DNA of 63,984 bases, counting the filler, from Octopus bimaculoides (taxonomy: Eukaryota), in assembly GCF_001194135.2 (NCBI RefSeq). It is 5 parts of 5 records of this genome, joined end to end, with 100 filler letters (N's around TTAATTAATTAA, not from the genome) between each part and the next. Parts side by side here need not be neighbours in the genome. Positions count along the whole stretch, not along the records: positions 1 to 26,098 come from NC_068985.1; positions 26,199 to 41,538 come from NC_068989.1; positions 41,639 to 57,400 come from NC_069009.1; 2 more parts are not named here. One strand, given 5' to 3'. Below are positions 16,645-45,103 of this stretch, piece by piece. Positions within the stretch are counted from its first letter, which is position 1. The number at the start of each line of letters is the position of its first letter. Under the pieces are notes generated by a model. That model was not told the origin of the DNA, ran no database searches, and saw nothing but the letters and a program-made list of their open reading frames with translations. The translations under genes and the position numbers were made by a program.

Positions 16645-16646
<2 letters not shown>

Positions 16647-16735
16647 GGAGTAAGCACCAAACTGTCCGATGAACGGGAACGTGAAACTCAGAGTAACAGT
16701 CTTTTGTTATATTTCTGCTGCCTTTAAATAAAAAA
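16645..16735 (+). mobile_element. Family G short repeat with hammerhead at 16661-16700
   Basis: ACUGU CCGAUGA ACG-GGAA-CGU GAAA CUC-A-GAG UA ACAGU. Preceded by ccggagtaagcac, the inverted family end; set in (TA)n. Confidence 0.75.
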
Positions 16736-17618
16736 ATATATATATATATATATATATAGGCACACACACACGCACACAAACAGACATACCTGACACAGTA
16801 TAAGTATATATGTGTGTATGTGTGTGTATATATGTATGTGGCGCGCACACACAGATACAGACACAGACACACACACACACACACACACACACACGAACAC
16901 ACATACAAGCACATATGGCCGTGCTGACATGTATATACGCGGACTGATAAGTACTTTACACATTAGTTTCCGCATATGCATATGCGTAGTGTTTTGTTCG
17001 ATTTACATACTTACCACTTTCCTTCTCTTTATTACTAATAAAAGACGGTTGGCATCGGTTAAAAAACAATGACAACCTCACAATATTACTCATGATATGT
17101 AAGTGCTCGTAAGTCTTTTAGTTCTCTCTCTCTCTCTCTCTCTTTCATTGATGTGAAAGATGAAGAGAAATAAGGAAATGAAAGTGTTTCACAAAGAGGG
17201 AGAAAATGGTTTGCTGCATCTCCGAACAGAGTCCGAGAATTGTAGAGAGAATCTATGAAAGAAAGAGGGAGAGAAAAATATAGTGTGGGAGAATGAAGAA
17301 AAATGCATGAATTTTCTTTCAAACTATTCTTTGGTCTTATAACACACAAAGCAGAAGGTCAAATGCTTTTGAGGATTGTCATCGGGCTAAAGATCAATGT
17401 ATGCTTCTCTCATGATCAGCTTTATATGATTATGTCCAGAGTAGCAATTTAAAGACGCATTTTATTATGGCACGCAGTTATGCAACTTAAGTCATTTGAA
17501 TTCTGCTCACGATTCCTTTTCTCCGATCGTAGGACTGACATTAGATTAGTGGTGTATAATATTTTGTATTAATAATACAAAGTAATGCTTACTCATTACT
17601 TTGATGAATTGCTTTTCC

Positions 17619-18182
17619 GGATCTATTTTAAAACGGGGGCCACATTTTTCATTAACGAAACACTTTGAAACTTGGAACACTGGTAGAATGTGTCATATAA
17701 AACATCTTTTTCTCTTAGTCTTCTTAAAAAAAAAGAAATCCCTAAGTTATTCCATGTTAAAGTTGTTGTATTTCTGTAATTTCAACCAATCACTGACGTC
17801 CATTCAGCCGATATACATTAAGTGCCGACTACATAAACAAACGATTCTGAAACAATTCTATCGGTGATAGGGTTAGGGTTAGGGTTAGGGTAAAACAGCA
17901 AATTTAAAAAGAAAAAAGAAAAACGAAGCTATGGAAATTAAATACGCTTTACACCGCTTAATCAGCCAAAGGAGTAAACATAAACAACTGAATACTTGTC
18001 AGTGATTGGTTGACATTATCGAAATAAGACAATTTTTTACATGAAATAAATTCGAATACAAAAATATTTTTCTGTTCTATAACACAAAATAGATAAGTAT
18101 ACGAAGTTTGAAAGTCTTTCCGTACCAAAAACACTACGTAAAACATTAATGAAAAATGTGGCCCCCGTTTTAAAAAAGATCC
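17619..18182. mobile_element. Merlin-like MITE copy 1
   Basis: TIR GGATCT(A/T)TTTTAAAACGGGGGCCACATTTTTCATTAA. Flanks gcttttcc and ccttttcc (8-bp TSD, one mismatch). Confidence 0.85.
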
Positions 18183-18350
18183 CCTTTTCCTATCCAATCT
18201 TTGATTGTAGCACTGAAATTAAGAGTATGAATAGAACTATTTCAGTGCTGGAAATTACCATGACACTCGTGAGTTTTACTTTGCTTATACTGCATATAAC
18301 ACTGCTTTTTGATTTGTTAGTTGCACTGGACCACTGAAAGTTAAGGTACA

Positions 18351-18703
18351 GTTGGCACTCCGTCGCTTGAGACGTCGAGGGTTCCACTTGATCCGATCAA
18401 CAGAACAGCCTGCTCGTGAAATTAACGTGCAAGTGGCTGAGCACTCCACAGACACGTGAACCCTTAACGTAGTTCTTGGGGATATTCAGCGTGACACAGT
18501 GTGACAAGGCTGACCCTTTGAATTACAGGTACAACAGAAACAGGAAGAACGAGTGAGAGAAAGTTGTGGTGAAAGAGTACAGCAGGGTTCGCCACCATCC
18601 CCTGCCGGAGCCTCGTGGAGCTTTAGGTGTTTTCGCTCAATAAACACTCACAATGACCGTCCTGGGAATCGAAACCGCGATCCTATGACCGCGAGTCTGC
18701 TGC
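18351..18703 (-). mobile_element. SINE family A, slightly 5'-truncated
   Basis: Reverse complement of 40502-40940. 11-bp TSD taaggtacagt at 18342-18352 and 18704-18714. Confidence 0.9.
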
Positions 18704-18824
18704 TAAGGTACAGTATATGGCTAAAAATAGACTACAAGCCTCTATTCCTTTGATTTCCTATTTATTCGCGGTTAGATTAAACGCTTGACATCTCTCATTT
18801 TCAGGGTCTTTATATTGCAACATC

Positions 18825-19745
18825 TTTTATCTTTTACTCGTTTCAGTCATTGGGCTGCGACCATGCTGGGACACCGCTTTGAAGGCTTTTAGTCGAATAA
18901 ATCGACCTCAGTATCTTTTTTTTATTTTTAAGTCTGGTACTTATTCTATCGGAACCCGTTTACCGAAGCACTAAGTCACAGGGAAACAAACTGCCTAACA
19001 AAGTGAAACTCACTCTTTAAGTACCAGTTTTACTGCGCATGCGCACTCGAGGGGCTTCAGGTGGTGAAGTCCCATGCGCATGTGCAGAATAGTATTTCCT
19101 CAATGGCGGCTATAATTTCGCGCCACGGATCTATTTTAAAACGGGGGCCACATTTTTCATTAATGTTTTACGTAGTGTTTTTGGTACGGAAAGACTTTCA
19201 AACTTCGTATACTTATCTATTTTGTGTTATAGAACAGAAAAATATTTTTGTATTCGAATTTATTTCATGTAAAAAATTGTCTTATTTCGATAATTTCAAC
19301 CAATCACTGACAAGTATTCAGTTGTTTACATTTACTCCTTTGGCTGATTAAGCGGTGTAAAGCGTATTTAATCTCCATACCTTCGTTTTATTTGCTTTTT
19401 TCATNNNNNNNNNNNNNNNNNNNNNNNNNNNNNNNNNNNNNNNNNNNNNNNNNNNNNNNNNNNNNNNNNNNNNNNNNNNNNNNNNNNNNNNNNNNNNNNN
19501 NNNNNNNNNNNNNNNNNNNNNNNNNNNNNNNNNNNNNNNNNNNNNNNNNNNNNNNNNNNNNNNNNNNNNNNNNNNNNNNNNNNNNNNNNNNNNNNNNNNN
19601 NNNNNNNNNNNNNNNNNNNNNNNNNNNNNNNNNNNNNNNNNNNTGTGGCCCCCGTTTTAAAAAAGATCCCGCGCCACTACAAAGCTATAGTATTGATTAC
19701 CCTTTCTTCCGACAATGGACTCTAAACCGCTAAAACATATCACAC

Positions 19746-19785
<40 letters not shown>

Positions 19786-42874: not shown

Positions 42875-43174
42875 AAAACAGCAACACCAGTTGTCAAGCC
42901 ATGGTGTGTGTGTGTGTGTGGGGGGGGACAAACACAGACAGAAGCACACGTACACACACACATATGTGCAATGGGCTTCTTTCAGTTCCCATCTACTGAA
43001 TCCACTCACAAGGATTTGATTGGCCCAGGCTATAGTAGAAGACACTTGCTTAAAATGCCATGCAGTGGGACAGAACCCAGAACCAAGTGAAGCAAATTTC
43101 TTNNNNNNNNNNCTGAATCCACTCACAAGGATTTGATTGGCCCAGGCTGTAGTAGAAGACACTTGCTTAAAATG
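42875..43174 (-). mobile_element. SINE family B fragment plus partial repeat after 10-N gap
   Basis: 42982-43102 is identical to 55071-55191; 43113-43174 repeats part of it. Confidence 0.85.
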
Positions 43175-43786
43175 GTGGTTAGGATATTGCACTCATGATC
43201 ACTAGACAGTGGGTTCAATCCTCAGACCAGGCAGCATGTTATATTCTTGACCAAAGCCCTTCAGTTCACTTTGCTCTGCAGGTGGGAGACTCGCAGAACC
43301 ATTTGCACATCAACAGAAATGCTTTATGGCATATCTTAGATCTCCTTACATTCTGAGTTCAAATCCCACTTGCCTGCAAATGGCAACTGGAAATCACTCC
43401 AGTGTTCGTCCCAAGTCTAGTCATGGTATCCAATGTTCCAGTGATTTATTTAATTGCGATAGGATGGGCCTCATCGAGGAAATGACAAGGTTCTGGGACA
43501 TGTGGCAATTTGCTATGCTTGAGAATACTAAGTAAAATTGGTGTCAACCACACATACAAGCTTGTCCTTTACCGGTGCCAGTGCCAAATAAAATGCACTC
43601 ATGCTGGTGCTGCATAAATGCACCTGTGTTGGTGACACGTAAAGAGCACCCAATCCACTCTGTAAAGTGGATGGTATTAGGAAGGGCATCCAGCTGTAGA
43701 GACCATTCCAAAGAAGACAACTCAAGCCTGGCCAGCTCCTTGTCAAACTGTCTGACCCAGACCAGAATGGAGAGTGGACGTTAAAC

Positions 43787-43831
<45 letters not shown>

Positions 43832-43844
43832 GATGATATGCTTA

Positions 43845-44220
43845 CAAGGGTTTCTTTTAGTCTCTGCTTACCAAATCCACTCACAAGGTTTTGGTCTGCT
43901 CAAAGTTACAGCACAAGACAATTATCGAAGGTGCCACAATGTGGGACTGAACCTAGAGCTATTTGGTTGGGAAGTAAACTTCTTACCACACAGCTACACC
44001 TTCACCTATATGTATACATATATATGTGTACATATATATATGTATACATATATATATGACAAGCTTCTTTCAGTTTCCATCTACCAGATCCATTCACAAG
44101 GCTTTTGTCAGCCTGAGGCTATAGTAGAAGACACTTGCCCAAGGTGTCATGCAGTGGGACTGAACCTAGGACCATGTGGTTGGGAAGCAAACTTCTTACC
44201 ATTCAGCCACACCTGCTTGT
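43845..44220 (-). mobile_element. Two tandem SINE family B heads
   Basis: Each has ccaaatccactcacaagg...gggactgaaccta...aaacttcttacca. Confidence 0.85.
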
Positions 44221-44289
44221 GTTTGTATGTGTTTTGTCTTATCGCATGATAATGGTAAGTAAGCACCACGGCCAGACAAATAGTGCCAT

Positions 44290-44700
44290 ATGCTTCCAAT
44301 GTTTCATGAAAATTTTCCCAGACATGGTGAAACTTTACCTTGCTTGGAAATAGGCAAAAATAGTAAATACCCCCCTTTGGTTATGAATGATCATGGGATT
44401 GCTTGTAGAAATTTACCCCCCAAGGCACAAGTCCAGGCAAGTTTGTTTATGGAAGACCAGCAATTGCCCATGCATACTGGGCTCCCCTCTTCACGCCACC
44501 GATGTTATCCAAGGGAAAGGCAAAGGGGCCGATACAGCTTGGCACCTGTGATGTTGCAACTCATTTCTACAGATGAGTGAACTGGAGCAACATGAAATAA
44601 AGTGTCTTGCTCAAGAACATAACACAGCCTGGTCTGAGAACTGAACTCACTATCTCATGATTGTGAGCCCAAGACTCGAAACACTGAGCCATTACACCTT
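44290..44700 (-). mobile_element. tRNA-head SINE family D, near full length
   Basis: gaactggagcaacatgaaataaagtgtcttgctcaagaac...gaactgaactcac...cactgagcca. Confidence 0.75.
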
Positions 44701-44948
44701 CATTGGAAATCAGTAAAAGAATTGTGTATATACAAGTAAATAAGTAAAGGAATTGTATGTGTATAAATGTTTGTGTGTGTGTGTGTGTATGTATATATAT
44801 TAAATTTATTTGGTCTGTGCATTACGCATCCTTGACTGTTAATTGAAGCGACCAATCCATGGCCATTATTTGAAACAACCAATCAAACGAATCCATGTGT
44901 TTTAAATTTTATATTACTTTCGATTGCATTGTTATCCTTTCTCCACTT

Positions 44949-45103
44949 CTAACAAAACTGTCCGATGAACGGGAACGTGAAACTCAGAGTAACGTTTTTT
45001 TTGTTATATTTCTGCTGCTTTTAAATAAAGCATATTACTCTACCTCTGGTATTTGAGTACTCTTTTTTTCCACCTTGTTGCACATTTCATGTGCTTACTC
45101 CGG
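44949..45103 (+). mobile_element. Family G short repeat, about 155 bp, with hammerhead at 44957-44995
   Basis: Core and stems II/III identical to 16661-16700; ends gtgcttactccgg then (TA)n. Confidence 0.8.

What the first reader, a model, noticed from the sequence alone, without database searches (positions are those of the whole stretch)
16645..45103. Family G hammerhead has a CCGAUGA (U4C) core that is identical in two distant copies
16661-16700 and 44957-44995 share ACUGU CCGAUGA ACG-GGAA-CGU GAAA CUC-A-GAG UA, with a GNRA-capped stem II and a 1-nt stem III loop. Identity at U4C argues for a family-level core variant rather than copy decay. The 16645 copy joins the inverted 3' end to the 5' end, as in Penelope-type inversions. 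This is the best activity candidate in the window.
Basis: partly seen in the sequence, partly recalled or inferred. Interest (0 to 1): 0.75.

Follow-up and report, generated by a model that had tools for sequence, protein, structure and literature searches.

The report
U4C hammerhead in Penelope-like repeat family
A very abundant animal jumping-gene fragment carries a hammerhead self-cutting RNA motif in which one normally fixed core letter (U4) is C in most copies; the change is family-wide and hides the motif from standard searches, but whether it still cuts is untested and doubtful.

Summary
The motif is real. Two copies share 39 identical bases with a type I hammerhead layout; 11 of 12 consensus core positions match and U4 is C. 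A third, decayed copy at 28295-28443 also has C there. Contigs from four runs, apparently two species, were laid on the repeat. They suggest on the order of 10^4 copies. No U4 row is among the 40 difference rows shown (11 hidden; I infer U4 below about 10%). The (TA)n targets, inversions, and ACUC-N-GAGU stem III near the 3' end match Hydra-clade Penelope-like elements (Craig 2021). No ORF was found, so membership is untested. 'Best activity candidate' holds only by default. U4C is already known in a viroid and lowers activity. The monomer fold is rare (p about 0.001), copy 44962 has a private stem I break, and genomic copies run through the cut site. Best reading: a slow, dimer-only, probably dispensable ribozyme carried by a successful element. 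New variant of a known kind.

The parts
16604..16644 (.). (AT)n target microsatellite on the left of copy 1
16645..16657 (-). Inverted 13-nt copy of the element's 3' terminus (= 45091-45103), joined to the direct arm through a 2-nt AC overlap at 16656-16657
   Evidence: two alignments overlap by these 2 nt
16661..16700 (+). Copy 1 type I hammerhead: stem I 5 bp, CCGAUGA core (C4 at 16667), stem II 3 bp with GGAA loop, palindromic ACUCAGAGU stem III, predicted cut between 16695 and 16696
16701..16736 (+). Copy 1 tail, ending at AATAAA/A-run (equivalent to 45029) and running into (AT)n; the same early end recurs in the family
   Evidence: loose ends at 45030-45035
28269..28299 (-). Inverted (fold-back) arm of copy 3, repeating the 5' half of the hammerhead
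   Evidence: hairpin -33.2 kcal/mol, z -4.29
28295..28443 (+). Copy 3, decayed: core CCUACGA (keeps C4, G5 lost), broken GAAA box and stem III, intact 3' terminus CCGG followed by (TA)n; 82% identical to copy 2
44800..44946 (+). Upstream body of the element in copy 2 (no coding signal found; likely 3' UTR), 5'-truncated at a (TA) tract; present in far fewer family copies
44947..44963 (+). Family hot spot for 5' boundaries and inversion joints
   Evidence: tables 2 and 5; (18-fold and 47-fold depth step)
44957..44996 (+). Copy 2 hammerhead: same core (C4 at 44963), predicted cut between 44991 and 44992; private mismatch in stem I at 44995
44997..45103 (+). 3' tail of the element with AATAAA at 45024-45029 and terminus CCGG at 45100-45103, followed by (TA)n and an assembly gap

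Best explanation
The three copies are 5'-truncated 3' ends of a very abundant Penelope-like retroelement family, closest to the Hydra clade. Its hammerhead acquired U4C in the master lineage before amplification. Shown: the motif, C4 in most copies, (TA)n flanks, inversions, a sharp 5' boundary just upstream of stem I, and genomic copies running through the cut site. Inferred: an RT/GIY-YIG protein nicks (TA)n and copies the RNA from the CCGG end back through an uncut (or re-ligated) hammerhead. It often stops, or switches strand, at the 5' side of stem I, which gives short copies and inversions. The ribozyme can fold only as a dimer through its 9-nt palindrome, and U4C slows it further. Cleavage after GUA is therefore most likely slow to negligible and not needed for the spread of these copies. 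I put identity as a Hydra-like PLE end at about 85%, and 'weak and dispensable' at about 60%.
For: C4 in 3 of 3 window copies. No U4 row among 40 shown, in runs with 5852, 4440, 44 and 117 contigs laid. Stem III ACU-NNN-AGU occurs in 16 of 25 Hydra-clade families and ACUC-N-GAGU in 5 of 25 (counted by eye). It occurs in 1 of 56 general metazoan PLE hammerheads, and that one is the H. magnipapillata element. Hydra-2_aMil has the same CUGU/ACAG stem I, and Hydra elements target (TA)n. Weak activity: U4C 'considerably decreases activity in vitro' (Perreault 2011). In a pairwise scan, all mutants of the CUGA region other than the C3-G8 swap had low activity (Roberts 2023). Canonical-core PLE hammerheads already cleave poorly even as dimers. 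The monomer fold has probability 0.0011, against a -7.4 kcal/mol palindrome duplex. DNA depth over the core is 0.91 (X1) and 0.89 (X14) of depth 3' of the cut, so copies do not begin at the cut. Both arms of copy 3 share a G5-to-U core, suggesting that a dead core was itself copied (weak inference).
Against: No RT or GIY-YIG match in 150 of 166 frames scanned against Pfam, so the autonomous partner is unseen. The one published octopus Hydra element (Hydra-1_oBim) has a different, canonical hammerhead and 3' end. The only common DNA variants shown inside the 40-nt motif are structure-neutral: the palindrome centre (A to U 14.2%, A to C 11.0% in X1) and stem I position 1.3 (G in 87.5% of X1, A in 99.5% of X14; both pair with U). 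This hints at selection on the fold. In the two guessed-RNA runs, depth over the core is only 0.53 and 0.39 of depth 3' of the cut, as cleavage would give; but contigs cannot show ends, and a related family joins at about 45024. U4C kept a viroid infectious. One loose end in run X13 shows a U4 copy.
Confidence: 0.55

Rival explanations
1. The U4C hammerhead is a working, attenuated dimer ribozyme kept under selection. It cuts tandem precursor transcripts slowly enough that uncut or re-ligated RNA still serves as the RT template.
For: 11 of 12 core positions are intact in the family majority. Common variants fall only at neutral places, including an A-U versus G-U difference in stem I between the two organisms. 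U4C is tolerated in vivo in a viroid. Guessed-RNA depth is higher 3' of the cut.
Against: Only two variable sites, so the selection signal is weak. No rescue of CUGA mutants in pairwise mutagenesis. No place where many molecules begin or end (table 6, though contigs cannot show ends). An 85-nt guessed-RNA contig spans the cut site with no other letters (X13 record 10).
Confidence: 0.27
2. Most copies are not random truncations but a defined non-autonomous unit of about 155 nt (44947-45103), a solo pLTR or SINE-like element that begins at a transcription start just 5' of the hammerhead and is mobilised by a Hydra-type protein. This can hold together with either view of activity.
For: Summed depth rises 18-fold (X1) and 47-fold (X14) between 44926-44936 and 44970-44980. 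Copies 1 and 3 both begin there. Non-autonomous PLE derivatives are reported.
Against: Upstream sequence under 80% alike is not counted, and loose ends at 44951 show other upstream sequences. In both short window copies the 5' end is an inversion joint, not a clean start. Copy 2 and a 583-nt guessed-RNA contig extend further upstream.
Confidence: 0.3
3. It is a non-LTR retrozyme that spreads as tandem arrays and small circular RNAs.
For: Type I hammerhead in a short AT-rich repeat; retrozyme monomers are often dispersed.
Against: All three copies are solo, with no tandem array at them. None of the 15 joints shown goes back head-to-tail (1 hidden). The 3' end runs into (TA)n. The hammerhead is of the minimal PLE type, not the canonical retrozyme type.
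Confidence: 0.06
4. The motif is a chance look-alike, or U4C is decay of single copies of a U4 family.
For: No Rfam match. No folding signal against shuffles (z 0.48 and -0.05). The relaxed descriptor hits 30 of 200 shuffles at stem I >=3. One U4 loose end.
Against: Near-identity of layout with Hydra-clade hammerheads at the same place in the element. C4 dominates in two organisms. The U4 loose end also carries changes at both stem II CpGs and a broken G8, the pattern of CpG decay (inference).
Confidence: 0.03

Closest known systems
Hammerheads of Hydra-clade Penelope-like elements (Craig et al. 2021, PMC8557442, File S2), e.g. Hydra-2_aMil and Penelope-3_HM
   Same: Type I; short stems; 9-nt palindromic stem III (the same ACUC-A-GAGU in Penelope-3_HM); same CUGU/ACAG stem I and A17 as Hydra-2_aMil; U at 11.1 as in 17 of 25 families; close to the 3' end; (TA)n target.
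   Different: All 25 listed families have U4 (the search descriptor required it). Here position 4 is C. No ORF seen. [quoted passage not shown]
Minimal hammerheads of metazoan PLEs (Cervera and De la Pena 2014, PMC4209133)
   Same: Dimer-type type I motif with palindromic stem III, mostly in solo truncated copies, sometimes on opposite strands; low activity expected.
   Different: 56 of 56 aligned representatives have U4 (descriptor-imposed); the core variant reported is U3-A8, not U4C. Most have a longer stem II and an extra base after A9, which this motif lacks.
Viroid U4C hammerhead (Ambros and Flores 1998, known here only through Perreault 2011, PMC3088659)
   Same: Same core change; reduced in vitro activity, still enough for infectivity.
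   Different: A variant in a viroid population with a full tertiary-stabilised hammerhead (recalled: peach latent mosaic viroid), not the majority state of a high-copy animal repeat with a minimal, dimer-only fold.
Naiad PLEs of octopus (Naiad_Obim, Naiad_Ovul; Craig 2021)
   Same: (TA)n target, inversions, one-sided tail.
   Different: Described as lacking canonical hammerheads. The displayed 3' end of Naiad_Obim does not match, and four words of this element gave no hit in the octopus Naiads.

Membership tests
Canonical hammerhead ribozyme | Core C3 U4 G5 A6 N7 G8 A9, G12 A13 A14, A15.1, U16.1, H17 | tested here: not met
   11 of 12 specified positions met, U4 is C (consensus as). Filed as a core variant, not a canonical member.
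Canonical hammerhead ribozyme | Three helices around the core, type I | tested here: met
   Copy 1: 5, 3 and 3 bp. Copy 2: stem I is 3 bp then a private mismatch. The monomer fold is rare, p 0.0011.
Canonical hammerhead ribozyme | Match to an Rfam hammerhead model | tested here: not met
   No hammerhead family among 6 and 2 hits at E<=10, nor among the 150 of 297 rows shown for the whole window.
Canonical hammerhead ribozyme | Site-specific self-cleavage after H17 | not testable with these tools
   No assay possible; contigs cannot show RNA ends.
Hydra-clade Penelope-like element | Single ORF with RT and C-terminal GIY-YIG lacking CCHH, with DKT, RWK and CxCX5C motifs | tested here: inconclusive
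   No RT or GIY-YIG hit in 150 of 166 window frames. The copies are too short to hold the ORF, and no genome is held.
Hydra-clade Penelope-like element | Insertion into (TA)n | tested here: met
   3 of 3 copies are flanked by (TA)n; loose ends behind 45035 and 45087 run into (TA)n in all four runs, in X13 behind 45030 and 45087.
Hydra-clade Penelope-like element | Hammerhead near the 3' end with short palindromic stem III | tested here: met
   Core 141 nt from the terminus; ACU-NNN-AGU as in 16 of 25 families. The core differs at U4.
Penelope-like elements (general) | 5' truncation with adjacent inverted copy | tested here: met
   Copies 1 and 3; 11 opposite-strand joints shown, 3 of which end at 44998 and may reflect stem I's own inverted repeat.
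Penelope-like elements (general) | pLTR / partial tandem around an ORF | not testable with these tools
   No full-length copy available; no G000.
Non-LTR retrozyme | Tandem 170-400 nt units, each with a canonical type I hammerhead; circular RNA | tested here: not met
   Solo copies, no array; no head-to-tail joint among the 15 of 16 shown. Circles not testable.
Naiad (octopus families) | Sequence match to the Naiad_Obim/Ovul 3' end | tested here: not met
   Exact-word search and the displayed 3' end of Naiad_Obim only; no alignment was run.

The most novel reading that the evidence does not exclude
A U4C hammerhead is the working majority form in tens of thousands of copies of an animal retroelement. 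It was kept because a slowed, dimer-gated ribozyme spares the RNA template while still processing tandem transcripts. Such CCGA-core motifs are invisible to the CUGANGA descriptors and Rfam models in use, so ribozyme censuses, and statements that some PLE clades lack hammerheads, would need re-checking.
Probability: 0.22. Interest if true: 0.65.

Novelty: new variant of a known kind. Interest (0 to 1): 0.42.

Why it matters
The role of hammerheads in Penelope-like elements is open; Craig 2021 even suggests they may only parasitise the elements. A very successful family in which a core base is changed in most copies gives a natural test. If C4 does not cleave, the ribozyme is dispensable for massive spread. 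If it does, U4C is a usable natural core, missed by descriptors that require CUGA. Either result is informative to ribozyme and transposon specialists. Neither reveals a new kind of system.

Tried and rejected
Whole genome: none held, so no direct copy count. Rfam: no hammerhead match; the window-wide top rows are microsatellite hits to miRNA models. Family-specific pattern with Y at position 4: 0 hits in metagenome contigs and 0 in genome contigs. Related pattern in viral contigs: 7 loci, none with convincing stems by eye. Naiad_Obim/Ovul and Hydra-1_oBim rejected as the parent. The 11 CCGATGA places in Craig's supplement show no hammerhead context by eye. No PLE protein in 150 of 166 frames; 16 shorter frames were not scanned. 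Canonical CUGANGA boxes at 22668, 38790 and 46696, and a CCGAAGA box at 3310, were not picked up by the stem-requiring descriptors. A U3-A8 hit at 1353(-) is AU/GU-rich and chance-like. The 13-nt match at 26654 lacks the rest of the motif. Folding z-scores give no support. The RNA depth rise 3' of the cut is not accepted as evidence of cleavage. A pair count on the three-copy alignment gave no result. Searches of earlier findings by sequence and place were empty.
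Full report
OBSERVATION. The window is AT-rich animal DNA with many microsatellites and 8,252 N. I take it for an octopus from recalled SINE sequences and from the roughly 2.4 Gb of contigs in the DNA runs; no call named the organism. A relaxed type I descriptor finds exactly two motifs, with cores at 16666 and 44962. Both read ACUGU CCGAUGA ACG-GGAA-CGU GAA ACUCAGAGU A, and they are identical over 39 nt. Against the consensus quoted by Perreault 2011, 11 of 12 specified positions match and U4 is C. Copy 1 closes stem I with 5 pairs. Copy 2 has 3 pairs and then a mismatch. 16645-16657 is the reverse complement of the terminus 45091-45103. In 200 shuffles, a similar descriptor hit 3 windows at stem I >=5 bp and 30 at >=3 bp. 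Rfam has no hammerhead match, and folding z-scores are near zero. The motif alone is suggestive, not proof.

A THIRD COPY. 28295-28443 is 82% identical to copy 2, ends in the same CCGG(TA)n, and has a fold-back inversion of the hammerhead's 5' half. Its core is CCUACGA: C4 is kept and G5 is lost. Both arms share the U at position 5 and a C at 7. If one arm was copied from the other at insertion, a dead core was retrotransposed. This is weak: the arms differ at 5 of 27 positions, and the rest of the inverted arm aligns only marginally (46 of 1000 shuffles as good).

FAMILY LEVEL. No genome is held, so I laid contigs of 4 of the 24 listed runs on 44805-45105 at 80% likeness: X1 (organism A, DNA guessed), X14 (organism B), and X13 and X16 (RNA guessed). 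Contigs laid: 5852, 4440, 44 and 117. Summed depth over the core in X1 is 1.17-1.46 million, against 23-62 for the eight long pieces listed. Division gives 31,000-39,000. The tool warns that this is no copy number, so I claim only an order of 10^4. No C>T row at 44963 is among the 40 difference rows shown; 11 rows are hidden, and by subtraction these include 2 C>T places in X1 and 3 in X14. The weakest row kept reaches 6.7% in its best run, so I infer, without seeing the ranking rule, that U4 is below about 10%. Two guessed-RNA contigs certainly carry C4: X13 record 9 (its 5 differences are all listed elsewhere) and record 10 (no other letters). Against this: one X13 loose end shows a U4 copy. 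It also has changes at both stem II CpGs and A at position 8, which is what CpG decay gives; an older U4 subfamily is not excluded. Since C4-G5 is a CpG, decay pushes towards U, so a C majority means the master had C.

Inside the 40-nt motif, the common DNA variants shown are the palindrome centre 44986 (U 14.2%, C 11.0% in X1; 6.1%, 5.2% in X14) and stem I position 44994 (A in 12.5% of X1 and 99.5% of X14, otherwise G; both pair with U). 44995 is G in 96.5% and 98.1%, so copy 2's T is private. Both variable sites are structure-neutral, a mild hint of selection resting on two sites.

Depth rises 18-fold (X1) and 47-fold (X14) across 44937-44970, just 5' of stem I, and is about equal on both sides of the cut (0.91, 0.89). 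So most copies hold the whole hammerhead and do not begin at the cut. Part of the step may be upstream sequence too diverged to be counted. Of the 11 opposite-strand joints shown, 10 start at 44947-44963; 3 of these end at 44998 and may reflect stem I's own inverted repeat. None of the 15 joints shown is head-to-tail (1 hidden). Loose ends show a recurrent early 3' end into (AT)n near 45030-45035, as in copy 1. Copy 1 thus has the true terminus only on its inverted side, like the one-sided tail described for PLEs, though longer.

WHAT IT IS. Craig 2021 File S2 lists hammerheads for 25 Hydra-clade families (counted by eye). Stem III is ACU-NNN-AGU in 16, ACUC-N-GAGU in 5, and identical to ours in Penelope-3_HM. 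Position 11.1 is U in 17, so the A-U closing pair of stem II here is less of a defect than I first thought. Hydra-2_aMil shares stem I CUGU/ACAG and A17. Hydra elements are under about 3 kb and nearly all target (TA)n. In Cervera's general alignment only 1 of 56 has this stem III, the H. magnipapillata element. All 25 and all 56 have U4, but their descriptors required it. The published octopus member Hydra-1_oBim has another hammerhead and 3' end, and the octopus Naiads do not match by exact words. No RT or GIY-YIG was found in 150 of 166 frames. It therefore works like, and probably derives from, a Hydra-clade PLE, but I do not file it as a member.

HOW IT WORKS. Inferred from PLE biology: the endonuclease nicks (TA)n, RT copies from the CCGG end through the hammerhead, and stops or switches strand at the 5' arm of stem I. 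The monomer hammerhead has ensemble probability 0.0011, while the 9-nt palindrome forms a -7.4 kcal/mol duplex, so any cleavage should need two copies. Canonical-core PLE hammerheads gave no cleavage as monomers and low cleavage as dimers. U4C considerably lowers activity yet kept a viroid infectious. In a pairwise scan of another hammerhead, nothing rescued CUGA mutants except the C3-G8 swap (no number for U4C seen). I expect slow to negligible cleavage (about 60%), a working attenuated dimer (about 27%), and independently a defined short non-autonomous unit (about 30%). For cleavage: guessed-RNA depth over the core is 0.53 and 0.39 of that 3' of the cut. But contigs cannot show ends, a related family joins at about 45024, and an 85-nt contig spans the site.

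NOVELTY. U4C as a natural change is in print, and so are Hydra-type hammerheads. I found no report of U4C in a PLE or of this family's hammerhead in nine searches; the 2026 O. vulgaris repeat annotation has 0 occurrences of 'hammerhead' or 'ribozyme'. The library lacks most subscription papers. Lunse et al. 2017, the largest catalogue of PLE hammerhead variants, and Ambros and Flores 1998 were not held and could lower the novelty. Repbase/Dfam were not searchable. An unchecked note from this scan reports a C4 core in a Euglena-like PLE-associated repeat, so C4 may recur; not tested here.

PAPERS SEEN. PMC3088659: passages, section 8, references. PMC4209133: parts 1-2 of 4, supplement parts 1-2 of 3 and a search. 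PMC8557442: passages, section 11, supplement part 2 of 59 and five searches. PMC9901934: passages; supplements listed, not read. bioRxiv 10.64898/2026.07.22.740005: part 1 of 5 and passages; supplements closed. PMC13282606: part 1 of 3 and a word search. PMC6765202 and PMC7229834: passages. PMC3376415, PMC11014351 and PMC6466107: passages, nothing used. Lunse 2017 and Ambros 1998: titles in reference lists only.

VERDICT. Observation confirmed with corrections. Family-level U4C and the Penelope link are supported; activity is doubtful and untested. New variant of a known kind, interest 0.42.

Noticed in passing
window 4470-4835 (-): Frame matching Pfam Exo_endo_phos (PF03372, E 2.8e-6), the only above-cut-off hit of 150 frames; likely a LINE endonuclease remnant.
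   Followed up: no
window 45024-45103, loose ends: A second, related repeat family or older subfamily shares only the last roughly 80 nt of the element, with a different sequence before 45024-45027 in all four runs.
   Followed up: no
window 44805-44976, run X13 record 9: A 583-nt guessed-RNA contig at depth 289 carries C4 and extends 411 nt upstream of 44805; it is the best lead to the full-length element.
   Followed up: no
window 45113-45830 and 27734-28149: Assembly gaps lie right beside copy 2's 3' (TA)n and copy 3's 5' (TA)n, so a neighbouring inverted or tandem partner there cannot be excluded.
   Followed up: no
window 61864-62038 and 63810-63984: A 175-nt 100% identical direct duplicate, part of a repeat also at 45831-46104; recent copy or assembly duplication.
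   Followed up: no
window 5029-5212 and 6187-6370: A 184-nt direct repeat at 96% identity, 1.2 kb apart, next to the endonuclease remnant.
   Followed up: no
window 18351-18691, 21725-21976, 40587-40929; 25912-26098, 36320-36490, 48603-48793 and others: Several dispersed SINE-like families, some 93-96% identical between copies, many ending at (TA)n.
   Followed up: no
window 44850-44885: Two CCAAT words about 80-110 nt upstream of the 5'-boundary hot spot; possibly a promoter in the element's upstream body (sequence only).
   Followed up: no
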